Shown in pieces: positions 25,678-41,023 of a stretch of 64,000 nucleotides of DNA (the stretch's first letter is position 1; each line of letters opens with the position of its first letter). Source of the stretch: an uncultured Cellvibrio sp. (GTDB taxonomy: Bacteria; Pseudomonadota; Gammaproteobacteria; Pseudomonadales; Cellvibrionaceae). The notes under the pieces were generated by a model. The model was not told where the DNA came from. It was given only the letters and a program-made list of their open reading frames with translations, and searched no databases. The position numbers and the translations under genes are program-made. The stretch covers positions 55,555 through 119,554 of the forward strand of contig CALFXJ010000038.1 of NCBI GenBank assembly GCA_937958105.1, in the 5' to 3' direction.

Positions 25678-25890
25678 AGGATGTGCCGAGTGACTCTCTC
25701 AACAAGCAGCACAATCTAAAAAAGAAATAAAAAACGGTAACGAATTTCCATCCGTTACCGTTTACGTTTTACTGCTTGTAGAATTGTGTCGTTACTGCAA
25801 CACGTCAGGATCATTTAATAATGGATCATGCATCTCCGGGATCAACTGATCAGTTTGACCGGGACATTCGCTTTTGGAGGGATAGCCTTT
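25678..25890. repeat. Direct repeat copy A (partner-gene 3' end + terminator + downstream tail)
   Basis: Closely matches 28939-29152 (offset about 3,261 bp), including non-coding aggatgtgccgagtga...caagcagcacaatct...aaaaaacggtaacgaa. Confidence 0.92.
25721..25763 (-). terminator. Rho-independent terminator ending the minus-strand cassette
   Basis: Stem aaacggtaacgaa/tccgttaccgttt (25732-25763). The single mismatch becomes a G-U pair in minus-strand RNA, and a U-rich tail follows. Confidence 0.85.
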
Positions 25891-26841
25891 TTGCCAAGTA
25901 AGTTGTTTGGCGGTGAGCCAGCCTTTTACAACCGATGATTCCGTATCTTGTTTTTTATATTCCCCATCAATAAGTTTGTAATGAACAAGAAGCTCACCTA
26001 TTTTAAAGAAACCTGGCACGGGATCATTAACCAATTTTGATTGATAGAGCTTTCTCCACAACACAATGTCACGTGACTGACTGCTCTCAAAACCGCCAAA
26101 GTAAAGCTTTGATATAGACCGTAATGCGGGGTACAAAACTCTCCTGTCTTTCACTTCCAGTGTGGAATAAGCAATATACGCGGGGTCACTGGATTTATTG
26201 TTGGTCAATCCTGAGTTCTGAGCTTCTTCCTGGGAAAGTTCATCGCTCAGGTAGTAATGCGCGCTGAAAATTACGTTCTTCTTTTGCGGTGAAAAAACGA
26301 CAAAATCCTTGCCAATCGTTAATACGAGTTCTTGCTGTGCGTCTTCGTTAATATCACCATACCGCAATGGGTTGGCTTCCATACATCCAACACGATCTTT
26401 TAAATCTCCGGGAGACATAAAGTAGCTCGGTTCATAGTCGGGCACGATTGCCAAGGTATCTGTGCGATTAAACTGCTCGCCATAAGCGGCTGCAATGGCT
26501 TCAGTCGCTAGAGAGTCTTCTCCGCCGATTTTTAGATGTTCTGAGTAGGGTTCGAGAGACCATGAACCGATAAGATCTCGGCTAGAATAACGCGTTGCGT
26601 ATAACTTCATCCTCTCAGACAGCGAATACACAACGCCAGTATCTTCAGAATGAAGAAATGCTCTAACTACCGGGTCACCAACCGATCTTTGCCCTGTTCT
26701 AGCAACAGAAAGTGGCAAGCTTGTTTGAGCAAGCGTAGAAAGGTTCTCCATTGTTACCCCAACACCTTGACTCAAAGCCAATTCCTGCGAACTCACCGAT
26801 ATCGAAGCAAACAATACTGCTGATAAAAAACAATTCCTCAT
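25792..26841 (-). CDS. Exported partner protein, paralog 2 (putative immunity protein of the orphan cassette)
   Basis: Signal peptide MRNCFLSAVLFASISVSSQ; ATGA overlap with the orphan-tip stop; homologous to 29054-30046 with an identical last 32 aa. The longer ORF-track start (26940) is rejected. Confidence 0.75.
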   Translation of the reverse strand: MRNCFLSAVLFASISVSSQELALSQGVGVTMENLSTLAQTSLPLSVARTGQRSVGDPVVRAFLHSEDTGVVYSLSERMKLYATRYSSRDLIGSWSLEPYSEHLKIGGEDSLATEAIAAAYGEQFNRTDTLAIVPDYEPSYFMSPGDLKDRVGCMEANPLRYGDINEDAQQELVLTIGKDFVVFSPQKKNVIFSAHYYLSDELSQEEAQNSGLTNNKSSDPAYIAYSTLEVKDRRVLYPALRSISKLYFGGFESSQSRDIVLWRKLYQSKLVNDPVPGFFKIGELLVHYKLIDGEYKKQDTESSVVKGWLTAKQLTWQKGYPSKSECPGQTDQLIPEMHDPLLNDPDVLQ

Positions 26842-28884
26842 GGTATAGCCACCCCTGTTACACAATCTATACGCCCTACTGGAGCTATTGGAGGCACTGC
26901 CAAAGGGTCGCCAACAGCAGCATCCAATGCATGAACCCACGTAGTTCCATTAGTCCACTCATTCTCCCCATAAGCAAAACACCAAGGCTCCGTTGTTTCT
27001 ATCACACCGGCAACCGGTGGAGTCGCTGTTGGGTCAGCAGGAATATCCTGAATAATACCATCACCATTAACATCAACACCTAAACCGCCTTGCCATACAT
27101 AAGTCCTATAGGGAAGATTCAATTTATCCACATCATGCATCACTCGCATGGCATAACGCATGGATTCCGTATTAGCAAACAACTGCCGTTGCTGAGCTGT
27201 CCTCTGACGATAACTGAGCCCACGAGCAGTAATAAAGCTTGGGTCCAGAGGGGTTACCCTGTCCAATAACATATTGATCCAGGAGCGTCCTGTACCTCCA
27301 CCAAAAATTGCTGCCCCCTGGTTGTAACCACCTAACCCCTTCGCCAGTAATTCGTAATCATCATCCGTATGGTTTGTTCCCGTAACAACAGAAGACACTG
27401 CCGTTGTTTCTATTTTCCTCAAGGGTGTTGCCACTGGCCATTGATAAATATCCCGATAACTCCTGCCGCCTGTGGTAGCAAATGCTCGATAAAAACTACC
27501 GCCACCACCACCGTTCTGACGAGGGACATCATCAATTGCCAGCCATACCGCTTTGGCAATCAGATTATGACGTGCATCATAATGATTAACCGCACTCACG
27601 CCAGCCGCGGTATAACCGGTAACCTCTTCCGCTGCGCTGCCATTTCCATCCTGTGCGCTCCCACCATAAGTGTAAGTATTCAGTAACTGGTTAAAGCCTT
27701 TACTACCTCGCTCATCACCACCACCGACAATTATTCGATAGTCAGCTTGATGCCTACCATTGGCTTCCATTTGCGCCATAGCTTTGAGAATCTGATGTCG
27801 TTCAAAGGTAGAGCCTGTCAACGTCTGTATATTGCTGTGTCTGGCTGCTGTATATGTCGGCGGGATGTTAGCGAAGCTTGGTCCGCCAGGATAATTAACG
27901 ACGCCATCCCAAACCGCTTCCGCCGCCTGAATCGCATTACCAGCTTGTGCACTCGTTTGTCCGCTAGCATTCGGTTCAAGATTCGCGTAATTAATCGTAG
28001 CACTCCCCTGCCAATGTGTATGTGCCAATATAAAATGACGCCAATGCCTGCCTATTTCAGCGATGGGCTGTTCACCAGTTACCGGTCCAGTATGCATTTC
28101 TTGTGTTTCATAGACTACCGGGCCATAGCTGATGTAATTAAATCGTCCGACCATGCGCCCCACTGACGGCGTAGAAGTAACAAATCGGTTACGATCTGCA
28201 ACACCCAGTCTTACGCCATATACTCCTGGTTTAGCGCTGGGCGACATGCCAATATTCCACATTACCGCCTCCAACATCGCCACGTCGCTGCCCGTCATCG
28301 GATTACTTGGATTAGCGTGAAACTCACGAGTTTTTACACGAAAATTGGTCCGATAATCACGCGGTACGCGCAATCCATCAACACCTGATGGAATGGTATA
28401 GCGGGCATAGAGGCTCGCCTCAATACCAGTATCTGTGGTTTGGGTGCCCGCCCAGTTTGACCAGTCAGTATCACCATTGGCGTCGACCGGCTCCCAGTAA
28501 ATATTGCCGTCATACAGATTACCTTGGGAATCCTCCTGTACATAAGGAATGTTAGCCTCAACCAGTGCGCAGGCATCCGCTGTTGTGTTAGTAACGCCAT
28601 AACGACGGCAGAAACGCCCACGATGGCCAAAGCGCCACTCCAGCCGGGTTAATTCAGTTCCGGCTAATGACGGGGGAATATAGCGATAACGTAACCGCAT
28701 GCCACCCAAGGTCCGAACACTGGGTATTTCCAGCATCGTCGCCGGTGCATTGACCGGTGTGCCCTGCTCTCCCGTTTCAAGCAAGCCAAGGATTTCAATA
28801 TCCGTTTCCACAACCCCGTTGCGGTTTTCCGTGTCGCCCGGTACCTGGTAATACACATGCAACCCGTTGCGGGTAAAGGCCCAC
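26838..28884 (-). pseudogene. Start-less orphan C-terminal module (PG-binding + lytic-transglycosylase-like), paralog of residues ~942-1634 of the 30060-34964 protein
   Basis: Intact 681-codon frame beginning WAFTRNGLHVYYQVPG. No signal peptide or RBS; the ORF-track start (28973) falls in non-coding repeat DNA just after a terminator. Confidence 0.8.
28789..28884. repeat. 96-bp homology anchor, copy 2
   Basis: 92/96 identical to 32047-32142 by hand alignment. Confidence 0.95.
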
Positions 28885-28948
28885 AAAAATGCAGGAAAGC
28901 ATTTTTGCACGGCGAAGCCGCCCGCAGGGCGAGGCACAAGGATGTGCC
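28884..28948. other. Compact four-hairpin element at the cassette junction
   Basis: caaaaatgc/gcatttttg, cggc/gccg, gccc/gggc and ggcaca/tgtgcc in tandem. Confidence 0.7.
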
Positions 28949-29152
28949 GAGTGATTCCCTCGACAAGCAGCACAATCTGAAAGAAGAAATAAAAAACGGT
29001 AACGAATTTTCATTCGTTACCGTTTACGTTTTACCGCCTATTGATTTATTTCGTTACTGCAACACGTCAGGATCATTTAGCAATGGATCATGCATCTCAG
29101 GAATTAACTGATCAGTTTGGCCGGGACATTCACTTTTAGAAGGATAGCCTTT
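28939..29152. repeat. Direct repeat copy B (partner-gene 3' end + terminator + downstream tail)
   Basis: Matches 25678-25890. Confidence 0.92.
28981..29025 (-). terminator. Rho-independent terminator ending the main operon
   Basis: Perfect 13-bp stem aaacggtaacgaa-ttttca-ttcgttaccgttt (28994-29025) followed by a U-rich tail on the minus strand. Confidence 0.88.
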
Positions 29153-30046
29153 TGACCAAGTAAGCTGTTTGGTAGTAAGCCATGTTTTGATGGTGGCTTC
29201 TTCGGTATCCTGTTTCTGATATGTGCCTTCGATGAATTTATAATGACGCACAACTTCTTTTTTGAGTTCAAATCCTTTTATGGGATCTTCCTGTAAACGA
29301 GATTCGTATCGTTTACGCCAAACCAAAATATCAAGCTCCTCATCTCCATCAAAATCATCAAAATAAACTTTTGCATAAGCTCGACGACCTACCCCACCAA
29401 TACGCCCCAACGCATCAGAAAGGTATTGCACTTTGCTGCCCGGAGGTGCCTCCACAGAATCTTGCAGGGCCAATCGGGCAGAAAATTCAATGGCAGCAGA
29501 CTGCGGAGAAAACAGTATCCAATCAAGTTGCTGGTCATTCTTTCCCATGTAAATAACCAAACTATCCTTGCCATTATTTTCCAAAGCACCATATCGCAAA
29601 GGCGTATTCGCCAAGCAACCTAATGAGCTCGTATTAAGTAAACGTTCATGAGCATATAAATGCCAAACATCACCCTCTGAGGCACCTTCCATGTCATAAA
29701 TAGACGCAACTTCTTTATCGATTAACTCGGTAGGCCAGCGAGTGAGGAGCCAGCCCGGATTAAACTGCTTTGTATTTACGTTAAAAAATACCACCCTACC
29801 GTCTGCCTTTAATGCATAGTATTCACCATCAATATCAGATTGAATAAAAGCTAGCGGTGACGAAGTATTTTCTGGGCAAGGATTATTCCATCCACAAAAA
29901 GACGCTGCATACGGCAAGCTTGTGGCTGCAAGATCCATAATGGTTTGGTCATTAACGCTGACTCCCTTTTCCAGTTGGATTTGGGAATATACCGATGAGC
30001 AGGACAAAAGAAAGCTTATTGAAAATATATACAATATTGATTTCAT
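29054..30046 (-). CDS. Exported partner protein, paralog 1 (putative immunity protein of the full-length effector)
   Basis: Signal peptide MKSILYIFSISFLLSCSSVYSQ; GGAG RBS right after the upstream stop; paralog of 25792-26841. Confidence 0.8.
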   Translation of the reverse strand: MKSILYIFSISFLLSCSSVYSQIQLEKGVSVNDQTIMDLAATSLPYAASFCGWNNPCPENTSSPLAFIQSDIDGEYYALKADGRVVFFNVNTKQFNPGWLLTRWPTELIDKEVASIYDMEGASEGDVWHLYAHERLLNTSSLGCLANTPLRYGALENNGKDSLVIYMGKNDQQLDWILFSPQSAAIEFSARLALQDSVEAPPGSKVQYLSDALGRIGGVGRRAYAKVYFDDFDGDEELDILVWRKRYESRLQEDPIKGFELKKEVVRHYKFIEGTYQKQDTEEATIKTWLTTKQLTWSKGYPSKSECPGQTDQLIPEMHDPLLNDPDVLQ

Positions 30047-30059
30047 CAAATTACTCCAG

Positions 30060-33000
30060 TCATTGACAAGCTATTCTTCCGACAGCAGGATTAAGCATAC
30101 TTCCTATAGCAGCTGTCCGCACGTCGGCATATCTTCGCCCGGCCATCCACTCCTTCTCCCCATAGGCGAAACACCATTCAGGCTGCCCCGCATTGAGATG
30201 CGGCTGGCCGGTAACCGGGTCTGTCTGGGGATATCGAGCGCCCACCCAAATATAGGTAACAAATGGTAAATAACCACCGATATCTGCTTGAATCGTCCAA
30301 CTTTGTTGCTTGACACCTAGCCAGTAACCAAAATGGGTGGGGGAGAAATTGCCTGCCGGAGTGCGACGCGGCATACCTTGCAAAGCAGTAAAATATGAGT
30401 TGTTTCGTAGGTTGTTAGCATTGGCACCTTGATTATAAGCAATTACCGCTTTACCCAAGAGGTTGTAACCATCGTCGTGAGTGCTATTAAAAGCAATCCA
30501 GTTAGCTTGGTTACCGGCGCGAGAACATCGCGGACCGACCATATCGCCAGGTGCGGTTGTTTCATAACAGTATGACAGCGGAGTGTTTTGCTGAGGATGG
30601 GCAACCACATAATCAGGGGTAGTTTGGCCCTGTGTTGTGATGTAAGCGTTGTATAAACCTCGTGAGTATGTACAGGCACTGTCGGAAGCCGCAGCGAGAA
30701 ACGCCAGCGCACTGTTTACCGGGTGGTAAAGATTAATATTTTCCACGCCATTGGTCAGGAAACCTCGATTGGATTCACAACTGTTTTCCGCCCCGTACAT
30801 ACGTTTCCAAACAATGTGGTTATAACCCATACTACCCTCTTCATCTCCACCCCCTTCGTTAATACGGTAGGGGCTAGGTTGGTAATTGGAGATATTGTTA
30901 CCCCAGAAAATTGCACCATTACCAACCTCTTGGAGTATCCATGATTTGAATACTCCCTCACGAGCAATGCCTTGGGCAACTTGGGGGAACTCAGCGACGA
31001 TATCGTCATGGATTGCTTGCGTGTACGTTGCCTCTAATGTGTAGGTAGCAGGTAAATTACCCGAGTAAGGTATGTCGCCGCCCTGATCCGCTAACTGTTC
31101 GATATCCACCCAAAGACTTGCGGGAAGTTGCCGATAAGTAAACACAGGATGTGCTGCATACGTTTCCACAGCCCGAAAATAATGGGACCAAATCCGTTGC
31201 AAGCGTCTCAAGGTAACATTGTTCACAATACCGCTTACATCAGTTGTTGTATTAGTGCCTGCTAAATCGTTGATATTGACATTCCTGGCCTGAAACCGAC
31301 GAATCATACCCTCCAAAGAAACTTGTCCTACCAGACATTGGGCACCCCATCCGTAGTAATACATACCCCTATTGTCAGCAGGAGCTCCCTGACAATTTTG
31401 AGTCCAGTTACTTAACCCGCTGCCATTTCGAGAAGAGTTTATCCTCGCTCCCAAGTATCCTGAGTTGTAGTTTGGATTCGCTCCATACTGCGGACTAATC
31501 CCCAACTGCCACAACATCGCCTCCAGCATCGCCACATCACTGCCTTCCATCGGATCAGCCGGGTCTGGCCTCAGTTCGCGGGTCTTGATATGGAAAGTCT
31601 GCTCATAAGTGCGCGGAACACGGTTGCCTCCAGAGCTGGAGGGGATGGTGTAATGTGCTTTCAGGCTAGCTTCAACACCTGTATCAGCCGTTTGCGTACC
31701 CGCCCAGTTGGACCAGTCCACGTTCGTGGTACCTGCCATGGGTGGTGCAGGTTGGTCCGTCAGGGGTTCCCAATACACATCGGCGGTGTCACCGGGTGGG
31801 ATGTTGGTTTGTTTGTAAACTACACCCGCATCAACAACCGTGCACTGCCCTTGCGGATCATCAACCCCATAGCCCTGGCAGTAGCGGCCACGTTTGTTGA
31901 TGGTCCAGTCGACGTAGGTAATTTCTGTACCGGCAAGTGATGGCGGTATATAACGATAACGCAAGCGCATGCCACCCAAGGTACGTACTACCGGGTCCTG
32001 AACCGGCATAACACCGGAACCCGCTTCACCCGGCTCAAGCAGGCTCAGGATTTCAATATCCGTTTCCACAACCCCGTTGCGGGTTTCCGTGTTGCCCGGC
32101 ACCTGGTAATACACATGCAACCCGTTGCGGGTGAAGGCCCACTCCCACAATGTATTCCCAGCGTCGTGGTTGAGGTACAAACGGATCGTGAGCAGATCAG
32201 TCGGGTCGAGATAATCAAGTTGCTCAAGATTGTCAAAACGAATTTCGCCCGTGTCTGTCACGGTAACCTTGAGTTCATGAGCACCAAGACTCATCACCAG
32301 TTCCTGTTCGCCCTCAATAGCGGTAAGGCGTGGAACGGTTTGTTGTACCAACGAATAAAACACGGAGACCAGATCATCGTCGCTGCGAATGGTGGGGATC
32401 TTGCCGTCGATTAATTGTTCCGTCAGTAATTCCTGTTCGTGGGCTTGGCCGCTTTCATCGGTATACTCACGCAGGATGCTATCGATCTCCAATTGGAACT
32501 GACTGAACTGGTATTCAGGGCGGTAGGTCCAGCCGTAGCTGGGCAAGGGCTTGGTCGGTTCGGTATCAATGACTTCCGCATCGTAGGCTTTCCTGGCCTG
32601 ATTCCAGGCAGAGAAGACTTGCCATTCCTTATCTTCGTCGTGTAACGGCACAAGGAAGGGAGTCAGCACGCGGGGGCGGTACTGCATCATATCCGAGGCA
32701 GCCGCGCCCCCCATGTCAAAACTGGGATTTTCGTCCTTCGGGGTGCCGGATACGTGGATGTAATAGTGTTCCGGCACCGTCAGGTTACTCCTGACCTGCA
32801 GAACTTGCATATTACGCCCTGCGGCAATGGGAAAGTTGGACAGGTCATTGTCCGTCACTGCCTGAATAAGATTGGGCGTTACGATCTTGGCCAAACGTCC
32901 AGTTAGACCATATTGCTCGCCGTGGTCTACACTCAATCCTTCCGGCAAAGGACGGCCATCATGATCAAACCATTCGGTGTAGATGGTAATGCGATCATCC

Positions 33001-34964
33001 GATACCCGGCCTGCGCCTTCCGCGCCAATAATATTATTCCGGCTTTCCCGCTGACGGGTTAAGCCGTTGTCATGCGTATAATCGCGCTCCGCCCAGACTT
33101 TCAGGTTCGGCGGTCGCAGGACAATGTCTTTTACCGGCACATTTAAGTAGCCACCGGGATTTCGGCTGGCATCGCTTAGCTGAACACGTTGGGTATCCAT
33201 GTAGCCGGTAGCGCGATTAATAACAACCAGGCGTATCCACTCGCCGGGTTTCAAATGATCCGACTCCTGGCTTTGGAATGAAGCAGTTAGTTTATTGCGT
33301 GAGGCCCAGTCGTCCCAACTACCGGAACGATTTGTGCCACCTATATTGAGATTACCGTCGCGCGGGCCGCGCAGCATGACCCGGTAGAAGACGTTGTCAT
33401 CGCCCTGCCCCATCCCCACTTGAGCACGCCCGTCAATCTCCGCATCGCGCAATCCCCTCCGCTCCATCACCAACTGGCCGGTAGATTCACGGAATACGAG
33501 AATGTCCGTGTTTTTAAAATCATCTTCGCTGATGCTGCTGAGAAGACCGTTGCTTTTGAATGCATTGCTTCCTTCGCGTTTTTTTTCTCTGTCGGCTTGA
33601 CGTATAACATTTGGCTGGCCAGTTGTTCCTCTCGAACTAAAATAAACGCCTTGGACACTGCCTGCGGGATCAGCCTCAAATATCGTTTCCACACTTCCAT
33701 CCGGTTGTGGTTGTTGCACCAGTTTACCCAAGACAGCCGTGTCGGGCTTTCCATCACCATCAAAGTCATAAAACGCTTGCGCGACAGGCGTAACAGAAGA
33801 CGCCTGCACTACATACTCAGTCGTATCTCCAATCGGAATAGGCACAACCGAGCCAGGTGTTCCCCCCGGATTGCCAATCAATATACGCCCAGTCAGAAAC
33901 ATTACATCCACCCGCAAATCAATGGCGTAATTGGGTGTGGACATGGTGGCAAGTGAGGCTATCGTATTAGTGTAGGCCATGGCGCCGCCCAGGCTCATGT
34001 CATACATTGCAGCGCCGTTACAATAGCTCCAATCCTGCCGACGCAGATAGTAAGGCAACACCGGTGCACCATTTGGGCTGAAGTTGGTGTAATAAAGTTC
34101 CGCCCATACATCCGTAGTGTGTTCAAAACTGAAACCCGGGCATGGAGGCAAACGAAAATTAAGACGGTACTTTCCCTCTCTGTCGGTCACATCCACGCCG
34201 CCCGGATAAACCCATTCATCCACATACACTTTTACGAATGGAACTGGCCCAAAAATTTGGTCTTCAGATCCGCGTGTGTAGCCTCCATAAAAGTCCTGTG
34301 CCTCTTTGGGATCTCCGAAGAAGCCGGACCGGGGCGCAATATTAAGATGTGAAAAAGCTATAATTCGCCCCTGCTCGTTCATGACAAGACTGACAGCATC
34401 ATCCGGTGGTGATGGCTGCGTAAGGTCAACACTGAAGGACATTAATATCAGTTGATCCGGGGCTGTCGTCAGGCGGTTACTGCGCCCGCGGACCAGCACA
34501 CTCTTCTGATGCTCCAACAATCCTGGTTTGTCAATAGATTCGCCACTTACCGTTAAAAAGTTGGCTTGCTTGTATTGTTCCCCACTCAACAATTGCGCGT
34601 CTTGCGCCAGAGGATTGCTAGGACGCTCAGTAAACTCTTTCCATCGATTATATTCACTTGTGTATTCGTAGGCGCTGATGATTTGTAGACGGTCAACCTT
34701 GTCCGCATATTCCCCCAAAGCCACTTCACCAGCCTCGGATCCATCCTCGTTGTACTGAACAAGGATAGGTTGACCTTTCTCATCCAAGGCCATTGCACGG
34801 GCCATCACTGCACCGTGTTTATAAACCTGGTTCTGGTAATAAGCAATCGCAAAGACAGTGTGTGCAGATAGCGTCAATGCAACCGCAACAGCAAACCGGT
34901 AAACAGGCGGTATACATTCCTTAACTAACTTCATTTTCATGTGGTTATGGTTCCCTGACATCAT
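30060..34964 (-). CDS. Large Sec-exported modular protein: ~940-aa N-terminal stalk + C-terminal PG-binding/lytic-transglycosylase-like module (putative polymorphic muralytic effector)
   Basis: Signal peptide (RFAVAVALTLSAHTVFA); GSDVAMLEAMLWQLG...IRRFQARN...SGIVNNVTL (PG_binding_1-like); SWILQE / GSMGYNHI / IAYNQG (SLT-like motifs I-III). Confidence 0.75.
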   Translation of the reverse strand: MMSGNHNHMKMKLVKECIPPVYRFAVAVALTLSAHTVFAIAYYQNQVYKHGAVMARAMALDEKGQPILVQYNEDGSEAGEVALGEYADKVDRLQIISAYEYTSEYNRWKEFTERPSNPLAQDAQLLSGEQYKQANFLTVSGESIDKPGLLEHQKSVLVRGRSNRLTTAPDQLILMSFSVDLTQPSPPDDAVSLVMNEQGRIIAFSHLNIAPRSGFFGDPKEAQDFYGGYTRGSEDQIFGPVPFVKVYVDEWVYPGGVDVTDREGKYRLNFRLPPCPGFSFEHTTDVWAELYYTNFSPNGAPVLPYYLRRQDWSYCNGAAMYDMSLGGAMAYTNTIASLATMSTPNYAIDLRVDVMFLTGRILIGNPGGTPGSVVPIPIGDTTEYVVQASSVTPVAQAFYDFDGDGKPDTAVLGKLVQQPQPDGSVETIFEADPAGSVQGVYFSSRGTTGQPNVIRQADREKKREGSNAFKSNGLLSSISEDDFKNTDILVFRESTGQLVMERRGLRDAEIDGRAQVGMGQGDDNVFYRVMLRGPRDGNLNIGGTNRSGSWDDWASRNKLTASFQSQESDHLKPGEWIRLVVINRATGYMDTQRVQLSDASRNPGGYLNVPVKDIVLRPPNLKVWAERDYTHDNGLTRQRESRNNIIGAEGAGRVSDDRITIYTEWFDHDGRPLPEGLSVDHGEQYGLTGRLAKIVTPNLIQAVTDNDLSNFPIAAGRNMQVLQVRSNLTVPEHYYIHVSGTPKDENPSFDMGGAAASDMMQYRPRVLTPFLVPLHDEDKEWQVFSAWNQARKAYDAEVIDTEPTKPLPSYGWTYRPEYQFSQFQLEIDSILREYTDESGQAHEQELLTEQLIDGKIPTIRSDDDLVSVFYSLVQQTVPRLTAIEGEQELVMSLGAHELKVTVTDTGEIRFDNLEQLDYLDPTDLLTIRLYLNHDAGNTLWEWAFTRNGLHVYYQVPGNTETRNGVVETDIEILSLLEPGEAGSGVMPVQDPVVRTLGGMRLRYRYIPPSLAGTEITYVDWTINKRGRYCQGYGVDDPQGQCTVVDAGVVYKQTNIPPGDTADVYWEPLTDQPAPPMAGTTNVDWSNWAGTQTADTGVEASLKAHYTIPSSSGGNRVPRTYEQTFHIKTRELRPDPADPMEGSDVAMLEAMLWQLGISPQYGANPNYNSGYLGARINSSRNGSGLSNWTQNCQGAPADNRGMYYYGWGAQCLVGQVSLEGMIRRFQARNVNINDLAGTNTTTDVSGIVNNVTLRRLQRIWSHYFRAVETYAAHPVFTYRQLPASLWVDIEQLADQGGDIPYSGNLPATYTLEATYTQAIHDDIVAEFPQVAQGIAREGVFKSWILQEVGNGAIFWGNNISNYQPSPYRINEGGGDEEGSMGYNHIVWKRMYGAENSCESNRGFLTNGVENINLYHPVNSALAFLAAASDSACTYSRGLYNAYITTQGQTTPDYVVAHPQQNTPLSYCYETTAPGDMVGPRCSRAGNQANWIAFNSTHDDGYNLLGKAVIAYNQGANANNLRNNSYFTALQGMPRRTPAGNFSPTHFGYWLGVKQQSWTIQADIGGYLPFVTYIWVGARYPQTDPVTGQPHLNAGQPEWCFAYGEKEWMAGRRYADVRTAAIGSMLNPAVGRIACQ
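32047..32142. repeat. 96-bp homology anchor, copy 1 (internal to the effector gene)
   Basis: Encodes WAFTRNGLHVYYQVPGNTETRNGVVETDIEIL; 92/96 identical to 28789-28884. Confidence 0.95.
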
Positions 34965-37900
34965 TGCTGCAGTGCACTGCGCAATTGCTGTAACGTTTTT
35001 GTGCCGTCTACAACATCTTGTAGAAGCGGCTGCTGGGAAAGATCAACTAATGCATAGCCTATGTAATCCAGTGTATTGATCTGGACCTTTCCTACACTTA
35101 TTATCCTGTAGTTTTCGATCTGCCCGATACCAACTGGCTCGATAACTTCTCGATCCGGGTTGTAACCCAGCAACACAACATATTTTATTTCCGGAGAAAT
35201 GTAATCGTAGGTGCCGGCTAGCATCGGGACTTTAATGTCGATACTAATGGGATTTTCCACCGCAACTCCCCGCGGCTGGCCAGCGAACATCCACTGCGGC
35301 CAAGCACCGGGAGTTACAGCTGCATTAAGCTGGCTGTAAGGCATGAATTGCACCTGCAGATTGCCGGAGGTCCGGCCGTTTTTAAACAATAATCTGGCTC
35401 CGGTTAAATCCAGCCGTAATTCATCGCCTGCCAGGCTGACGAGCCCCTGATCGGCGCTGATTAACTGGAACGGGATATCAGGGTGAAGCTCTGGTAAGCG
35501 TGACAAGCTGATTTCATTCTTGCGTCCTTGTTGCAGGTTAATAGTTCGCACCTGTGTCCCGTATCCCGGCACGGCAAAATCGGGATTAATGATCAGCTCA
35601 TGACGGCCACCAGGAATTTCATTACCAGCAGCCTCTTGAAAGCCAAAGGCAAAGCTGCCGTCATTATTTGTCGTGGTGGTGCGATTAAGAGACGTCAGCT
35701 TTACCGGCACTCCTGATAACGGCTGGCCGAATTGATCAACTACACCACCGATAATAAAAGTAGGCAGCTGACGTATTTTGAAATTGAATCGACCCAGTTC
35801 GTTACCATCGTAGATTACATCTACATAAACATCTGCATTAAAGCCGAAATGACGATTCGCGTAATATGCAAAACTCTGGTTGCCAGGTAAAACAGACACT
35901 GCACCTGGGACTATCTCGTTGTCGCGGTGCACTTCCTGAAGCTGATAGCCCTGCGCGGTCAGGAAATCAGCACCGGATGGATCAAGATTCAAGTAGGTAT
36001 TACCATGCAGCGTTTCACTGACCGTTATCGTCAATTTGGAAGGATCGATCGCTTTATTGAAGTAAAGCTCAACAGGCTGGTTTGGCTCGCGGTTATTTGC
36101 GTTATTCTCGGGCGAGTAGCGTACCAGTTCCACCGGTATCGCTGTCTCATCAGTCACTCGTACCTGACGCGTCGTAGACGCAACGATTATATTCTGTGCG
36201 TTTAAGACTTGATAATTGAGCGTGTATGTACCAGCTTGTGGAGGAACTGTAACGTCTCCGCTGGCCAAGGTCCCAACAACGGTCAGCTCTGTTTGTTGAG
36301 TATTTACTACAACTACTACACGATGCCCTTCACCGATTTCCGTAAGTCGAGCTGCAGCCTGGACTTTTATGGGATCACCTCGCCCCAGAAGCTCGGCATT
36401 TTCACCAGGCAATAACGGTGTAATCGAGGCTTGTGCTGTGGATTGAAAAATATATGCCACACTGGTCCGGTTGCCACTTATGTCGTACGCATTAAAGACC
36501 AATTGGGCTTGTGCGCCCGCGGCTAAAGATACAGGCAGGGTGAAGTCGTATTGGCCGACGCTTGCTCCCGGGCGTAATACCAGGGGCTGGTCATTAACAG
36601 TGATGCTGGACAGATTGTCATCACTTACTGTGCCATTTACAACGAAGGGTGATTGGATAACATTGTTAACTGCAGGGCTGGGCTGCAGGCTTGCATCAAG
36701 TATTAGCCGTGGCGGTGTACCGTCACGATGATACTGCGCAACAAGCCTGGAGGTCTTACCAAGTGCATCGCGAGCTTCAACCGTCACATCGACAGTGTCT
36801 ATGCCTTCAGGAAACGAAATTACCTGTTCGAAATAATAATCCTGCAAATTACCGGCTGGGGCAGAAACCGCCATACCATTTACTGTCACCTCAGCGAAAC
36901 CCGCGTGACTAATGACTCGCCCTTTGAAGCGAAAACTGCTATCGCGCAACTGGCTGCCATTAGCAGGCGCGACTATCGAGAGCCTAGGCTCCTCAATAGC
37001 ATCCGGATCTTCCGGTGTGTAGGTAATCGTCAATGTTTGAGAGTCTGCACCAGCAAGCGACTCAACCCGCAGAACAAATACATTCTGTCCTTGTTGCAGG
37101 CGAATATCTGGCAAAGCGAAAGCATATAAGCCTTCCTGACCGGTACCATCCGGGGTTATCTGCCATTCGTTAATGTAAAAACGTATAGCATCCAGAGCTA
37201 ACAGGGTCTCCACCTGGCCCTTGATAGTCACGGTTTCTTCGGATATTACCGCACCATTAGCAGGGGAAATATTTACGAGACGCGGCGGGGAACTACGTTG
37301 CACCTGATGAGTAGCCTGAGTCATATTGCCAGAAAAATCCGCTGCCACCACTGTCAGCAGATTCATCCCGACCGCCAGCGGTACTTCCGCCATAAACTGA
37401 TTCGCTGTAATTGTTGCTGTAACAGCTGATGCAGGAAACCGGTCCGAGGTTACAGTCACGCTTTGAATACCGCTGTATGGCTGAGCCGGATCAGATACAG
37501 ACCCTCGCAATACAACTGTGGGGGATTGCACCATTTCATCGGGGGTATTGGATATTTGCAGTAATGGAGCAACACGATCCGGGTAATCGTTAACATCGTC
37601 AGGATTGGTCCCTGCTTGAAGTTCTTCTTCATTGGAAAAGCCGTCACCATCACGATCCGGGTCGCTGTTATCACCGATACCATCACCATCCATATCAGAT
37701 GATTCATTGGGATCATCCGGGAATGCATCTTCATCATCAGGAATACCGTCGCCATCACGATCGGGTTTTGAATATTTGATATTCAACGATTGGCTAACAC
37801 TACCATCCGGTGAAGTTGCTTCTAACGTTAATACGTTATTTCCTTCCTGCAGCATCACCAAGAAAGAGAATAAATAAGCCCCAGCGGTGCCAGACAGGGG

Positions 37901-40111
37901 ACGCAGTGTATCGTCAAGATAAAGCTGTACATCATCTAACGACCAGGCAGTTATGACTTCACCAGTGACTGTAACAGTCGGAGCTGACACTTCAGAGCCA
38001 TCAAACGGTCCGCTAACGATTAATTGAGGAAGTGATATTCTGTGAACAAGAATAGAATCTACCGTTATGTTGCCGGAAAAATCTCGTGCCTCAACTTGAA
38101 TAAGGTTGCCCCCCAGCACCAGCGGGACACTTGCAGAGAAAGTTTGCTCATTGAGCGCAGCCGTAATCTGGTGGCCTTGTGTAGTGGACAGGACTACCGA
38201 TGCGATACCGCTATTTTCCTGTACCGGATCAATAACATTGCCTGTGATGAGGATTTCGCCAGCATCTATTGGCGTATCCGGCTGGTCAATCTGTAACTGC
38301 GGGGGAGTCAGATCTGGAGCAGGAGAAGTTCCTTGGCAGAGTTCACCAAAGTCAGCTAGTGAGACTGCGTTTGGCGTATAGGTCACATGACTGTCACTAT
38401 CTAAGGTAATTCCTTTGCCGTTCACTGCACCAAAGATCTGGGTTTGATAGTTCAACCTTACTTGACCACGACTATAAACCAGGGCGTGAGCGCTGCTGCT
38501 AGTATGAAATTCAATATCACCATAGCCATAGATAATGAGTTTGGCCGAATCCTCGGTGTTGCCATTAAGTTGAGCAGACCATGGAATATATAAGGGGTCC
38601 CTGATAAATAATCGCGCCGTTCCATTACCCACTACCTCTATCCTGGTGTCTGCTTCAAGTGCTAGACGCTCGATCCAATAATCCCCGGCGGGCAATCTTA
38701 GAGTGCTGCCGTAGCCTACATTCATTTCGCGAATCAGGTACGCATCAGGTTGAGCGGTAAAGTTTACTGTTGCATCAGCGGCAAGTGTGACCTGTCCGTG
38801 CTCCAGCTCATCGCTACCATTAATCGTGAATATGGATGACCAAGGCACCATTATCGTATTAGTTGCCAGTGTTGACTTAAAATCTCCCGCAGTTAATGTT
38901 TGGCTGGGAACGCCTGTCGCAACGCATTGAGTATCCTCACAGCTCTGAGCCGATCCACCCATAGTAATCACATCAACTGCTGATAACTGATGTGATGAGC
39001 CGCTGCGTAACTGCGCATTCTGCTGAAAGCTTATGGTTCCCACGTCGCCATGAGCCTGGAGTCCATTACCGAATGCCGCACGACATATGTTTCCAACAGG
39101 AGGTGGTGAGCTGCCCACAGGTGGCTCCTGGCTCCCATCACCACCTGTTCCTCCACAAAATGTGGATAATTCAGTCTGAGCAAGCGATCCGACGTCTGCA
39201 TAAATTTTTCCGGAGGAGCCAAGATTAGCCTGATGAAAACTGGCAACGCCGTAGAGCTTGGCTTGCGCGATACTAAGCCTGTTTTTACTGTAGCTCACCG
39301 CAGATACTTCAGAACCCGCCTGAAGGGTCAGATCTCCGTGGGTATAGATAAATAGTTTGCTGGCATTATCCGGGCTGCCTGCCGATGTCATGTTTGCATA
39401 GGACTGCCAGGGAAATGTTAGTCCGTTCTTAACGTAGAGCTGGGCAGTTCCCTCACCTACCACGTTGATTCGGCTCCCTGTGGCCAATGTCAGATTATCA
39501 ACCCAATAAATACCTGGCGATAAATTTAACGTAGCTGCATAACCAAGATTTAATTGATTGATATGGTATGAAGTTGTAATGGGTGAAAAAGTTAAAACTC
39601 CTTCTCCATTAACAGTAACGGATCGAAATTGATTATATTGATGCGTGCCTAAGGTAGCACTGCCTTGATAGACCACCTGGTAGTCAACACTACTGGTGTT
39701 TTCTGGAAAATCTATGTTAACAGCCTCAGCGTGTTGCGCAGAGGCACTGCAGCGGCGTGTACCACAACTGGGCAAAACGGACCAAGCAGAGTCATTGACG
39801 CGTGCCACCATTAATGATTCTTCTGCGGCATCCAACAGCTGTGCGTTCCAATCAAAACTGATTTCACCATCCGGCTGATGGCTCTGAACAGCCACGGGAA
39901 AAATGCTTTCACATGGTAGAGATGCTCCGAATACCGGGCTGCAAAGCGTTAGAAAAACCCATCCCATCAATTCAGAAATGCCCTTTTTCCTGGCATTGCT
40001 AAATGACCATCCCTCGAGAGCCGAGTCCTGTCTATTTAAATAATTTTCCATACGACCCTGTCTCATGTAGCCCAAGAGAGACCCTGCTCTCGCTGATAGT
40101 AAAGAACCCAT
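34961..40111 (-). CDS. Large exported Ig-like/TSP3-repeat protein with a duplicated N-terminal domain
   Basis: Repeated Ig-like units (PPQLQIDQP, PRLVNISPANG, PRLSIVAPANG); Ca-binding DxDxDG repeats at about 37580-37770; SbsA-Ig-like ELVRYSPENN; carboxypeptidase-regulatory-like GGVVDQFGQPLSGV. Overlaps the next gene (ATGA). True start uncertain. Confidence 0.8.
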   Translation of the reverse strand: MGSLLSARAGSLLGYMRQGRMENYLNRQDSALEGWSFSNARKKGISELMGWVFLTLCSPVFGASLPCESIFPVAVQSHQPDGEISFDWNAQLLDAAEESLMVARVNDSAWSVLPSCGTRRCSASAQHAEAVNIDFPENTSSVDYQVVYQGSATLGTHQYNQFRSVTVNGEGVLTFSPITTSYHINQLNLGYAATLNLSPGIYWVDNLTLATGSRINVVGEGTAQLYVKNGLTFPWQSYANMTSAGSPDNASKLFIYTHGDLTLQAGSEVSAVSYSKNRLSIAQAKLYGVASFHQANLGSSGKIYADVGSLAQTELSTFCGGTGGDGSQEPPVGSSPPPVGNICRAAFGNGLQAHGDVGTISFQQNAQLRSGSSHQLSAVDVITMGGSAQSCEDTQCVATGVPSQTLTAGDFKSTLATNTIMVPWSSIFTINGSDELEHGQVTLAADATVNFTAQPDAYLIREMNVGYGSTLRLPAGDYWIERLALEADTRIEVVGNGTARLFIRDPLYIPWSAQLNGNTEDSAKLIIYGYGDIEFHTSSSAHALVYSRGQVRLNYQTQIFGAVNGKGITLDSDSHVTYTPNAVSLADFGELCQGTSPAPDLTPPQLQIDQPDTPIDAGEILITGNVIDPVQENSGIASVVLSTTQGHQITAALNEQTFSASVPLVLGGNLIQVEARDFSGNITVDSILVHRISLPQLIVSGPFDGSEVSAPTVTVTGEVITAWSLDDVQLYLDDTLRPLSGTAGAYLFSFLVMLQEGNNVLTLEATSPDGSVSQSLNIKYSKPDRDGDGIPDDEDAFPDDPNESSDMDGDGIGDNSDPDRDGDGFSNEEELQAGTNPDDVNDYPDRVAPLLQISNTPDEMVQSPTVVLRGSVSDPAQPYSGIQSVTVTSDRFPASAVTATITANQFMAEVPLAVGMNLLTVVAADFSGNMTQATHQVQRSSPPRLVNISPANGAVISEETVTIKGQVETLLALDAIRFYINEWQITPDGTGQEGLYAFALPDIRLQQGQNVFVLRVESLAGADSQTLTITYTPEDPDAIEEPRLSIVAPANGSQLRDSSFRFKGRVISHAGFAEVTVNGMAVSAPAGNLQDYYFEQVISFPEGIDTVDVTVEARDALGKTSRLVAQYHRDGTPPRLILDASLQPSPAVNNVIQSPFVVNGTVSDDNLSSITVNDQPLVLRPGASVGQYDFTLPVSLAAGAQAQLVFNAYDISGNRTSVAYIFQSTAQASITPLLPGENAELLGRGDPIKVQAAARLTEIGEGHRVVVVVNTQQTELTVVGTLASGDVTVPPQAGTYTLNYQVLNAQNIIVASTTRQVRVTDETAIPVELVRYSPENNANNREPNQPVELYFNKAIDPSKLTITVSETLHGNTYLNLDPSGADFLTAQGYQLQEVHRDNEIVPGAVSVLPGNQSFAYYANRHFGFNADVYVDVIYDGNELGRFNFKIRQLPTFIIGGVVDQFGQPLSGVPVKLTSLNRTTTTNNDGSFAFGFQEAAGNEIPGGRHELIINPDFAVPGYGTQVRTINLQQGRKNEISLSRLPELHPDIPFQLISADQGLVSLAGDELRLDLTGARLLFKNGRTSGNLQVQFMPYSQLNAAVTPGAWPQWMFAGQPRGVAVENPISIDIKVPMLAGTYDYISPEIKYVVLLGYNPDREVIEPVGIGQIENYRIISVGKVQINTLDYIGYALVDLSQQPLLQDVVDGTKTLQQLRSALQQ

Positions 40112-40120
40112 GTGAAAAAC

Positions 40121-41020
40121 TTAGTCAGCTTGAGAGATGATCTCAACCTGAACCTTTTCTCGCGCCTCTTGTGAAGCATTCTTAACAGCCTCGCGTAGCA
40201 TTATCGGAGCCAAACGCTGGCGAATATCCCCGCTCACCTCAGCTAAAGATTTAGGAGGGGTTTTGACGAGATTGGTTACTCGTACCAGGTGTAATTGTCC
40301 ATCAATATAAAAAACATTGGACGTATTGCCTTTATCAAGGGCATTAACTTGCTGCTCTAAGACCTTATTCAACAGGCCTTCTGTGACCCTTGCCTTTTGA
40401 TGCCTGAGCCCCCACCGCTCATCCCACTTTGCAGCAGAAGACGACCAGTTGGTGGTTTGTCTTATTTCTGGAATGCTCCCCAGCAGATCATCTCGCATAG
40501 CATCTGAAATATTGGCTGGCGCAACCAACATTTCATAATCACGGATATCTACCGAACCAAACTCCTCCGGGTGCTTCTCATAATATTCATTAATCATCTC
40601 GGGCGTGACGGGCGTTGGTGTTACATGAGCCTGAAGATATTCTTTTACATACAGCTCTTCCTGATAAACTCGAGTCAGATTTGCAATTTTCTGAAGCTGA
40701 TCTTCAGAAAGCTCCTGCAGAGCCAGCTGCTTCATAGCGCGACTCGCGATCAGGCTATCAAGTACTTTTTGACGGAGGCTTTCATCGAAATTGAACATGT
40801 CTGCCTGGCTGAACGTGCGCTCTATAGAGAATAGCAGGTCATCTTCAGTAATCTCTTCACCGTTAACCTTGGCCAGGACCAGAGAGGATTGGGCTGTATC
40901 CTGCCCCTCCTGCTTCTGGTCACAACCAGTCAACCCGATACTCAAGAAAATGAGCAGAGCTGATATTCGAGGCATAGTCACCCGAGAGACTTCGGTGGGG
41001 ATTTTCCTGTACAACAACAT
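40121..41020 (-). CDS. Lipoprotein SurA/PrsA-like chaperone with a degenerate parvulin domain
   Basis: Lipobox LTGC; LAKVNGEEITEDDL; LAEVSGDIRQRL; lacks the HIL and GGDLG motifs. The start may be 40975. Confidence 0.75.
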   Translation of the reverse strand: MLLYRKIPTEVSRVTMPRISALLIFLSIGLTGCDQKQEGQDTAQSSLVLAKVNGEEITEDDLLFSIERTFSQADMFNFDESLRQKVLDSLIASRAMKQLALQELSEDQLQKIANLTRVYQEELYVKEYLQAHVTPTPVTPEMINEYYEKHPEEFGSVDIRDYEMLVAPANISDAMRDDLLGSIPEIRQTTNWSSSAAKWDERWGLRHQKARVTEGLLNKVLEQQVNALDKGNTSNVFYIDGQLHLVRVTNLVKTPPKSLAEVSGDIRQRLAPIMLREAVKNASQEAREKVQVEIISQAD

Positions 41021-41023
41021 AAA

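What the first reader, a model, noticed from the sequence alone, without database searches (positions are those of the whole stretch)
26838..31560. Both tips carry a PG-binding domain plus a divergent lytic-transglycosylase (GH23/SLT-like) active site
Full-length tip: GSDVAMLEAMLWQLG...RRFQARN...SGIV (PG_binding_1-like, about 31501-31545), FKSWILQE (Glu at 30927-30929, E1346), GGGDEEGSMGYNHI and VIAYNQGA (about 30424-30440). Orphan tip: GSDVAMLEAVMWNIG, LKAMAQME (Glu at 27765-27767), GGGDERGSKGFNQL and LGGYNQGA. These line up with SLT motifs I (catalytic Glu), II (GLMQ) and III (AYNAG), although the usual E-S is E-V or E-A here. A wall-degrading enzyme fits with partners that carry signal peptides.
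Basis: partly seen in the sequence, partly recalled or inferred. Interest (0 to 1): 0.72.

Follow-up and report, generated by a model that had tools for sequence, protein, structure and literature searches.

The report
Wall-binding, lysozyme-like tips, swappable cassettes
Two related ends of a large secreted protein, one in use and one a stored spare, each carry a probable cell-wall-binding module and a very diverged lysozyme/SLT-type active site. Sequence-profile comparison supports this reading but structure searches do not, and the family is rare and unnamed.

Summary
Every motif sits at the stated coordinates in both tips (E1346 at 30927-30929; orphan Glu at 27765-27767). The motifs are family-wide invariants in 65 homologues, not chance.

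- **PG_binding_1-like module: well supported.** hhalign gives 91% probability (P 9e-7) over all three helices, and AlphaFold2 predicts three helices there.
- **SLT/GH23-like core: moderately supported, by profile-profile comparison only.** P is 8e-4, improving to 9e-5 once family-specific inserts are removed. The AYNxG half alone scores 87% (P 4e-6). The invariant Glu aligns to the SLT catalytic Glu.
- **Controls score far lower:** column-shuffled profiles reach at most 17.8, against 30-32 observed. GH24 and PG_binding_1 profiles score 8-17.

The usual Glu-Ser pair is in fact the family norm; the window's two tips are the exceptions.

In related genomes every complete tip is followed directly by an FG-GAP-type partner with a signal peptide. 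Arrays of truncated tip+partner cassettes also occur there. This fits a polymorphic wall-degrading effector with a periplasmic immunity protein, but that role is inferred. No secretion system is linked.

The parts
30060..34964 (-). P0001: 1634-aa secreted protein (Sec signal peptide, ~940-aa body, pre-tip, tip A)
   Evidence: ORF and translation. No Pfam or NCBIfam hit. The body, pre-tip and tip are conserved in 33 loci of other genomes.
31608..32141 (-). Pre-tip of P0001 (residues 942-1119). This conserved arm is shared with the orphan; homology starts at WAFTRNG.
   Evidence: BLASTP of P0001 against P0002; coordinates. Highly represented in soil metatranscriptome contigs that diverge from the window at 31483.
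31161..31556 (-). Tip A PG_binding_1-like module (P0001 residues 1137-1268): three helices with a ~60-aa Cys-containing insert between helix 1 and helix 2.
   Evidence: AlphaFold2 helices at tip residues 23-34, 98-109 and 130-149. hhalign against a PF01471 profile: P 2.8e-4, and P 9.4e-7 when framed on the orphan. Shuffle null maximum 17.4 against 30.7 observed.
30273..31010 (-). Tip A SLT/GH23-like core (P0001 residues 1319-1564), with family-specific inserts at about tip residues 232-256 and 309-375.
30927..30929 (-). Glu1346, the candidate catalytic acid, at the C-terminal end of helix 216-228 (tip numbering).
   Evidence: Present in all 61 family sequences that cover it. Aligned to the SLT catalytic Glu of the ES motif. 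Position in the helix from DSSP on the model.
30063..30272 (-). Tip A C-terminal beta module with invariant WCFxYGExEW and a Cys1598...Cys1633 pair. It has no counterpart in SLT.
   Evidence: Invariant columns C479, G483, E484, W487 and C514. Strands at 450-458 and 476-483.
29054..30049 (-). Partner A (P0003, 331 aa; lipoprotein-like signal ...FLLSC).
   Evidence: Translation. The family has 402 members, some with FG-GAP repeats. A partner lies directly downstream of the tip in nearly every related locus that extends past it.
28884..29030 (-). Intergenic region: terminator-like hairpin after partner A, then a perfect hairpin CAAAAATGC-TTTCCT-GCATTTTTG that abuts the first homologous base of the orphan.
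   Evidence: Sequence. The hairpin is unique in the window.
26838..28883 (-). Orphan cassette (P0002 from Trp31): pre-tip B plus tip B. It has no signal peptide and no body.
   Evidence: It keeps every family-invariant residue.
28020..28304 (-). Tip B PG_binding_1-like module (P0002 residues 224-318, short insert).
   Evidence: hhalign Prob 91.3%, P 9.4e-7, 63-70 of 70 template columns.
27117..27839 (-). Tip B SLT/GH23-like core (P0002 residues 379-619), with Glu403 at 27765-27767.
   Evidence: Aligned with tip A in A1 and A2; coordinates.
25792..26841 (-). Partner B (P0004 from MRNCF..., 349 aa; Sec signal peptide).
   Evidence: Translation. Homologous to partner A, with an identical C-terminal tail. 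Start coordinate.

Best explanation
Each tip is a three-part secreted module of about 500 residues.

1. **A PG_binding_1-like three-helix bundle.** Its first helix (GSDVAMLE..LW.LG) is also the conserved junction at which tips are exchanged.
2. **A strongly derived GH23/SLT-type glycosidase core.** An invariant Glu (E1346; E403 in the orphan) sits at the end of a helix. After it come GS.GFNQI (the GLMQ equivalent), N.YDP..N (the DPxxN equivalent), AI..YN.G (the AYNAG equivalent) and a conserved Tyr. The core is interrupted by a family-specific YR..EGG.DE loop and a ~70-residue insert.
3. **A Cys-bracketed beta module** with invariant WCF.YGE.EW.

The likely action is binding to peptidoglycan and Glu-dependent cleavage of its glycan strands. 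It could act as a lytic transglycosylase or, given the invariant Asp/Glu in the loop, as a muramidase.

The gene directly downstream encodes an FG-GAP-type protein with a signal peptide or lipobox. It is most likely the cognate periplasmic inhibitor (immunity). Tip plus partner form a cassette, and the orphan copy is a stored alternative.

**Shown:** the motifs, their conservation, the profile similarity, the secondary-structure order, the tip-partner gene order, and cassette arrays in related genomes.
**Inferred:** the fold class, the substrate, the inhibitor role, the antagonistic use and the delivery route.

The confidence given (0.58) is for the molecular identity together with a wall-degrading effector role. 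Taken alone, the PG-binding module is about 0.85 and the GH23-type core about 0.65.
For: - Invariant residues across 65 homologues.
- PG_binding_1: hhalign Prob 91%, P 9.4e-7; three helices in the model.
- SLT, whole core: hhalign score 26.7-32.5, P 8e-4 to 9e-5. The confident alignment grows from 14 to 72 columns as inserts are removed.
- SLT, split test: Prob 87.5%, P 3.6e-6 for the C-half; correct register at P 0.063 for the N-half; off-diagonals P 0.5-0.6.
- Nulls and controls: 100 column shuffles reach at most 17.8. GH24 and PG_binding_1 profiles score 8-17. SLT against GH24 scores 21.7.
- Pfam SLT recurs in 3 of 10 insert-spliced members, while every other family is a one-off.
- A five-motif colinear pattern hits only P0001 and the genome's Slt70-like ORF among 10,218 six-frame ORFs.
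- The Glu lies at the C-terminal end of a helix and is followed by short strands, as in lysozyme-type folds.
- In 22 unique pairs a partner lies just downstream of the tip. Tip and partner identities correlate: Mantel r 0.47, 0 of 2000 permutations as high.
- Partners carry signal peptides.
- Arrays of truncated tip+partner cassettes occur in L012, L016, L019, L028, L029 and L035.
Against: - No Pfam or NCBIfam hit for the native proteins, even at E 0.1. None of 34 members hit SLT at E up to 1.
- phmmer and hmmsearch against PDB sequences found nothing lysozyme-like, even with an insert-spliced profile.
- The confident part of the native hhalign alignment is only 14 columns, around AYNxG. The upstream register changed with the profile used.
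- Insert removal was guided by the SLT alignment, which is partly circular.
- The Mantel correlation is not corrected for shared ancestry of linked genes.
- No secretion machinery is linked to the locus.
Confidence: 0.58

Rival explanations
1. The tip has a new fold. The SLT-like motifs are short-motif convergence, and the domain is a binding, adhesive or differently catalytic head of a surface protein. The partner would then be a chaperone or anchoring lipoprotein.
For: All structure-based searches were negative despite confident models. All HMMER-level searches were negative. The strongest profile signal is one 14-column motif. The tip carries invariant elements with no SLT counterpart: YR..EGG.DE, WCF.YGE.EW and a Cys pair. 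The operon is otherwise made of giant adhesin-like proteins.
Against: Five motifs fall in SLT order with the SLT catalytic Glu matched. The score is well above the shuffle, reversed, GH24 and off-diagonal controls. An adjacent PG_binding_1-like module scores 91%. An invariant Glu at a helix end is hard to explain in a purely binding domain.
Confidence: 0.25
2. The tip is a real SLT-like enzyme but serves the producer. It would be a specialised wall-opening enzyme that lets the giant proteins of the operon pass or anchor in the cell's own peptidoglycan, with the partner as its regulator.
For: It shares a conserved operon with a ~13,265-aa protein, a 1716-aa protein and two lipoprotein PPIases. 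From general knowledge, dedicated lytic transglycosylases accompany many envelope-spanning machines.
Against: A housekeeping enzyme does not explain orphan cassettes, arrays of truncated tip+partner copies, diversification of tip and partner together, or strain-to-strain presence and absence of tip B.
Confidence: 0.1
3. The core is GH23-like but acts on another beta-1,4 GlcNAc polymer such as chitin, which would fit polysaccharide-degrading hosts.
For: Homologues are in Cellvibrio, Marinagarivorans, Microbulbifer and Marinimicrobium. The locus occurs in soil, compost and fungus metagenomes. From general knowledge, some GH23 enzymes are chitinases.
Against: The tip carries a PG_binding_1-like module. 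A linked signal-peptide partner that co-varies with the tip makes little sense for a nutritional enzyme.
Confidence: 0.07

Closest known systems
SLT domain, GH23 family-1 lytic transglycosylases (Pfam PF01464; e.g. Slt70, MltE)
   Same: A catalytic Glu at a helix end, usually followed by Ser. The GLMQ-like, DPxxN-like and AYNAG-like motifs and a late Tyr come in the same order. It is the best profile-profile partner.
Goose-type lysozyme (GH23 muramidase) (from my own knowledge, not tested here)
   Same: ES followed by a WG-containing loop and G.GF..Q, with acidic residues in the loop after the Glu. This is compatible with hydrolysis rather than transglycosylation.
   Different: No detectable sequence or fold match in PDB searches. 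This resemblance is a lead only.
phiKZ gp144-type endolysins and MltB-like enzymes: PG_binding_1 joined to a lytic transglycosylase (from my own knowledge)
   Same: The same two-module logic: a wall-binding three-helix domain next to a GH23-type catalytic domain.
   Different: Here the pair is the C-terminal tip of a 1634-aa Sec-exported protein. The PG-binding domain carries a 25-60-aa insert, and a cognate partner gene follows.
Periplasm-acting glycoside-hydrolase effectors with periplasmic immunity (T6SS Tse3/Tsi3, Tge/Tgi; pesticin/Pim) (from my own knowledge; see also PMC9796082, found but not read)
   Same: A wall-cleaving enzyme paired with an adjacent gene for a signal-peptide or lipoprotein inhibitor.
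   Different: There is no T6SS, VgrG/PAAR, colicin-type or other known delivery module at the locus. The partner is an FG-GAP-type protein with no match to known immunity families.
Polymorphic toxin systems with orphan toxin-immunity cassettes (Rhs, CdiA; PMC3482391, found but not read)
   Same: A conserved body and pre-tip, a variable C-terminal tip, the partner gene next to it, and promoter-less orphan and truncated cassettes downstream.
   Different: All tips belong to one family with one set of catalytic-type residues, rather than unrelated toxin folds. There is no Rhs/YD, FHA/TPS or other known trafficking domain. In Bermanella the tip is a separate ~650-aa ORF.

Membership tests
SLT / GH23 (PF01464) | Match to the family HMM at or above the gathering score (21.3 bits) | tested here: not met
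   No hit for P0001 or P0002 at E 0.1. No SLT hit in 34 members at E up to 1. After insert splicing, 3 of 10 members reach 12.8-16.2 bits.
SLT / GH23 (PF01464) | Catalytic Glu at the end of a helix (ES motif), aligned with the family's Glu | tested here: met
   The Glu is invariant, with Ser next to it in 29 of 61. It is aligned to the SLT Glu and sits at the helix C-terminus in both models.
SLT / GH23 (PF01464) | Colinear GLMQ, DPxxN, AYNAG and Tyr motifs | tested here: met
   G[FS]NQ[IL], N.Y.P..N.YN.G and Y are conserved. hhalign gives Prob 87.5% for the AYNAG half, but only P 0.063 for the N-terminal half.
SLT / GH23 (PF01464) | Lysozyme-type fold | tested here: inconclusive
SLT / GH23 (PF01464) | Cleavage of MurNAc-GlcNAc bonds giving 1,6-anhydroMurNAc | not testable with these tools
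   Needs enzyme assays and muropeptide LC-MS.
PG_binding_1 (PF01471) | Match to the family HMM at or above 23 bits | tested here: not met
   Only 2 of 34 members match, with best E 0.014.
PG_binding_1 (PF01471) | Three-helix bundle with G..V..LQ..L..LG / ..AV..FQ / G.v...T...L pattern | tested here: met
   hhalign Prob 91.3%, P 9.4e-7, over 63-70 of 70 columns. Helices at 23-34, 98-109 and 130-149 in the model.
Polymorphic toxin-immunity system | Conserved N-terminal part, variable C-terminal tip after a conserved junction, and the partner gene immediately downstream | tested here: met
   The junction is at GSDVAMLE. Metagenome and metatranscriptome contigs diverge from the window at 31483-31553.
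Polymorphic toxin-immunity system | Orphan or truncated tip+partner cassettes downstream | tested here: met
   The window's orphan, and arrays in L012, L016, L019, L028, L029 and L035.
Polymorphic toxin-immunity system | Known trafficking or secretion module (T5/T6/T7, Rhs, etc.) | tested here: not met
   No such Pfam or NCBIfam domain in P0001, the 1716-aa protein, the parts of the giant protein that were scanned, or the flanking genes that were scanned.
Polymorphic toxin-immunity system | Toxicity of the tip, neutralised specifically by the cognate partner | not testable with these tools
   Only co-variation is available (Mantel r 0.47).

The most novel reading that the evidence does not exclude
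This is a previously undescribed, Sec-dependent polymorphic effector system of soil and marine Gammaproteobacteria. Its exchangeable tips form a new, deeply diverged branch of the GH23 lysozyme-like enzymes, fused to a PG-binding module and a novel invariant WCF.YGE.EW beta module. FG-GAP-type periplasmic immunity proteins neutralise them. Delivery would use a giant-protein operon unrelated to CDI, Rhs or T6SS.
Probability: 0.35. Interest if true: 0.75.

Novelty: new variant of a known kind. Interest (0 to 1): 0.55.

Why it matters
If the tips are active wall-cleaving enzymes, they define a GH23-related family that every standard annotation tool misses. Only 164 representatives were found among 1.84 billion protein clusters, and none has a name.

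The family also has an unusual set of invariant residues: a second acidic pair and a conserved C-terminal Glu. These bear on how lytic transglycosylases and muramidases diverge.

Together with the cognate FG-GAP partners and the cassette arrays, the locus would be a new route for bacterial antagonism that uses none of the known delivery systems. It is testable in non-pathogenic Cellvibrio laboratory strains.

Tried and rejected
**Direct sequence searches: nothing.**
- Pfam and NCBIfam scans of P0001, P0002 and both partners.
- phmmer and profile hmmsearch against PDB, and an insert-spliced profile against PDB. The latter returned only a designed Kelch repeat and noise.

**Structure searches: nothing usable.**
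- There were no significant matches. BFVD gave weak hits (probability 0.2-0.3) to a PBS1 amidase, a CHAP protein and an 'N-acetylmuramidase' fragment. I do not count these as evidence.

**Other points.**
- My first extraction of SLT and PG_binding_1 domains from genome loci used wrong strands and frames. I redid it with strand-checked translation and with six-frame hmmsearch.
- hhalign in global mode against SLT is meaningless here because of the inserts.
- GH24 (phage lysozyme) scores only 16-17, so I rejected it as the closest family.
- I searched the fetched loci for the junction hairpin and found it only in the window's own genome. It is therefore not a general feature of the family.
- UniRef names one partner homologue (P0235) 'Tle cognate immunity protein'. 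A Pfam scan did not reproduce this.
- Literature searches for CJA_2507 and for a described system of this kind found nothing specific.
Full report
**What is there**

On the minus strand the window holds one long gene row.
- A giant ORF starts at 41884 and runs off the window. Fetching the neighbouring DNA shows that it is about 13,265 codons long.
- Next come two lipoprotein PPIases (41024-41839 and 40121-41020).
- Then a 1716-aa protein with Ig-like, TSP3 and DUF7305 domains (34961-40111).
- Then P0001 (30060-34964, 1634 aa, with a Sec signal peptide).
- Then partner P0003 (29054-30049), the orphan ORF P0002 (26838-28973), and a second partner P0004 (25792-26841 from its likely start).

Pfam and NCBIfam name the PPIases and the 1716-aa protein. 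They give nothing for P0001, P0002 or either partner, even at E 0.1.

P0002 matches P0001 from Trp31 (P0001 Trp942) to the end (E 1e-88). The two are nearly identical through the pre-tip up to GSDVAMLEA and strongly diverged after it. The genome has no other copy.

**Check of the observation**

They are also not chance.

An exhaustive HMMER search of 1.84 billion cluster representatives with tip A found only 164 relatives.
- The Glu is present in 61 of 61 sequences that cover it.
- Also conserved are R and G of YR..EGG, D of GG.DE, S of GS, N.Y.P, Y and N of YN.G, and a later Tyr.

The residue after the Glu is Ser in 29, Ala in 17, Thr in 7 and Val in 1. The canonical E-S is therefore the family norm, and the two window tips are the deviants.

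**PG-binding module**

Pfam's PF01471 model matches only 2 of 34 members, at E 0.014.

I built a PF01471 profile from 31 domains found in Gammaproteobacterial genomes and compared it with the tip profile using hhalign.
- Framed on tip A, which has a ~60-aa insert between helices 1 and 2, it gives Prob 41%, P 2.8e-4. Only helices 2 and 3 are placed correctly.
- Framed on the orphan, whose insert is shorter, it gives Prob 91.3%, P 9.4e-7. It covers 63-70 of the 70 template columns and aligns GSDVaMLEa.LW.LG, S.E.MVRRFQ and G.V...TL..L to the three canonical helices.
- One hundred column-shuffled templates reach at most 17.4, against 30.7 observed.
- AlphaFold2 (pLDDT 86, pTM 0.88) places helices exactly there, at tip residues 23-34, 98-109 and 130-149.

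I regard this part of the claim as supported.

**SLT-like core: positive evidence**

I built an SLT profile from 22 PF01464 domains of the own genus and order.
- Against tip profile A1 the score is 26.7 (P 0.0079). The alignment puts the invariant Glu on the SLT catalytic Glu, GS.GFNQI on GLMQ, N.Y.P..N on D..P..N, AI..YN.G on AAYNAG, and the late Tyr on the SLT Tyr.
- With the 65-sequence profile the score is 29.6 (P 0.0017). However, only 14 columns around AYN.G are confidently aligned, and the upstream register wandered.
- In a split test, tip C-half against SLT C-half gives Prob 87.5%, P 3.6e-6. Tip N-half against SLT N-half gives P 0.063, in the correct register for three motifs. The two off-diagonal comparisons give P 0.5-0.6.
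- Removing the family-specific inserts from the profile raises probability stepwise from 24% to 40%, 44% and 60%, and lowers P from 8e-4 to 9e-5. The confident alignment extends to 72 columns, from the Glu helix to AYNAG.
- Nulls are much lower. Column shuffles reach at most 17.8 and 17.5. The reversed template scores 13.7. A GH24 profile scores 16-17 and the PG-binding profile 8-11.
- As a yardstick, SLT against GH24, two accepted members of the lysozyme clan, scores 21.7. That is lower than tip against SLT.
- Ten insert-spliced member sequences scanned against all of Pfam gave SLT in three cases (E 0.0078, 0.017, 0.092). Every other family appeared once.
- A relaxed five-motif colinear pattern hits only P0001 and the genome's Slt70-like ORF among 10,218 six-frame ORFs. 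Shuffled proteomes gave 0-1 hits. The pattern was written after seeing the tip, so this shows specificity and is not independent discovery.
- In both models the Glu lies at the C-terminal end of a helix followed by short strands, and the later helices come in SLT order.

**SLT-like core: negative evidence**

- The whole-tip model gave no Foldseek match below E 2.6 in PDB and none below E 0.29 in BFVD.
- HMMER-level searches against PDB sequences also failed, both with the native profile and with the spliced profile.

Insert removal was guided by the SLT alignment, so the improved scores are partly circular. I could not inspect the coordinates.

My reading is that the core is probably a much-elaborated GH23-type domain (about 0.65). 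The family does not meet membership criteria at the HMM or fold-search level.

Whether it is a lytic transglycosylase or a muramidase is open. The invariant Asp/Glu in the GG.DE loop and the invariant Glu of WCF.YGE are candidates for a second carboxylate or a metal site.

**Context and likely role**

A scan of one genome per species found 33 loci. They are mostly in Oceanospirillales and Cellvibrionales, plus Alkalilimnicola and Thiodiazotropha.

The order PPIase, PPIase, 1716-aa homologue, body/pre-tip/tip, partner recurs in these loci. In nearly every locus that extends past the tip, a partner gene follows it directly.
- Several loci carry further cassettes of truncated body or tip plus an intact partner: L012, L016, L019, L028, L029 and L035.
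- In Bermanella the body (~1075 aa) and tip (~650 aa) are separate ORFs, in three tandem modules.
- Some stand-alone tips in metagenomes have their own signal peptides, for example P0008 and P0019.

Partners have a signal peptide or lipobox. They form a family of at least 402 proteins with FG-GAP-like repeats in some members.

Across 22 tip-partner pairs, tip identity and partner identity correlate: Mantel r 0.47, with 0 of 2000 permutations as high. This is not corrected for phylogeny.

Metagenome contigs give further hints.
- One strain appears to lack tip B and partner B (depth near 0 across 25702-28158 in run X5).
- Contigs in two runs join an orphan-like pre-tip to tip A at 28321|31553.
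- Soil metatranscriptome contigs cover the pre-tip at high depth and diverge from the window at 31483, inside the PG-binding module.

Together this fits exchangeable tip+partner cassettes, with the junction at the first helix of the PG-binding module. It also fits a wall-degrading effector held in check by a periplasmic cognate inhibitor.

That role is inferred. No known secretion or trafficking module is present in the island or its flanks. Glycosyltransferases and housekeeping genes lie upstream. A sulfatase, a multihaem cytochrome and a two-component system lie downstream.

**Verdict**

- The PG-binding module is supported.
- The SLT-like active site is moderately supported by profile evidence and unconfirmed by structure search.
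- The enzymatic chemistry and the biological role are untested.

It is best described as a new, strongly diverged variant of a known kind: a PG-binding plus GH23-type wall enzyme used as a polymorphic tip with a cognate partner.

Noticed in passing
window 41884-64000 and beyond (L096 1-18236): The giant ORF continues 18 kb past the window, for about 13,265 codons in total. It has a signal peptide and Big_7, LVIVD, TIG, TSP3 and four RCC1-propeller regions. It ends in a Gly/Tyr/Ser/Trp-rich tail.
   Followed up: partly
window 28884-28907 (-): A perfect hairpin, CAAAAATGC-TTTCCT-GCATTTTTG, abuts the first homologous base of the orphan. Orphan-like proteins from other Cellvibrio (P0014, P0015) begin with QKG.PAFLW, the translation of a similar hairpin. 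In C. japonicus this implies a stem change on both sides (GGC/GCC instead of TGC/GCA), but that is inferred from protein only. The hairpin was not found in the 33 fetched loci of other genera.
   Followed up: partly
window 28321 / 31553: Soil and compost metagenome contigs (runs X1 and X5) join an orphan-like pre-tip to tip A, with 19 unmatched letters between the two sides. Run X5 has depth near 0 over tip B and partner B (25702-28158). This suggests strain-level cassette differences. The shorter side of the joint is only 30-53 nt.
   Followed up: partly
window 31483-32565: Soil metatranscriptome contigs cover the pre-tip at word depth 48-155 and then run into unlike sequence at 31483. Relatives with other tips are therefore transcribed. 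Tip A itself is seen only at depth 2-3.
   Followed up: partly
L010 / L006 (Bermanella sp. R86531): There are three tandem modules of body ORF (~1075 aa), tip ORF (~650 aa) and partner (~348 aa), placed after the PPIase pair and a 1219-aa protein. Body and tip are separate genes there.
   Followed up: partly
window ~24700: G+C drops from 0.60-0.63 (16-24 kb) to 0.46-0.50 across the whole giant-protein island. This is compatible with horizontal acquisition.
   Followed up: no
window 40121-41839: Both PPIases have lipoprotein signals (LTGC, LSGC). One is distantly EpsD-like (TIGR02925, 53 bits, below its cut-off).
   Followed up: no
L096 18576-19769; L098 301-2140: Two glycosyltransferases and an NAD-dependent epimerase lie directly upstream of the giant gene. 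They may glycosylate it.
   Followed up: no
P0235 (partner homologue, Thalassolituus): UniRef names it 'Tle cognate immunity protein...'. A Pfam scan at E up to 1 gave no hit for it.
   Followed up: yes
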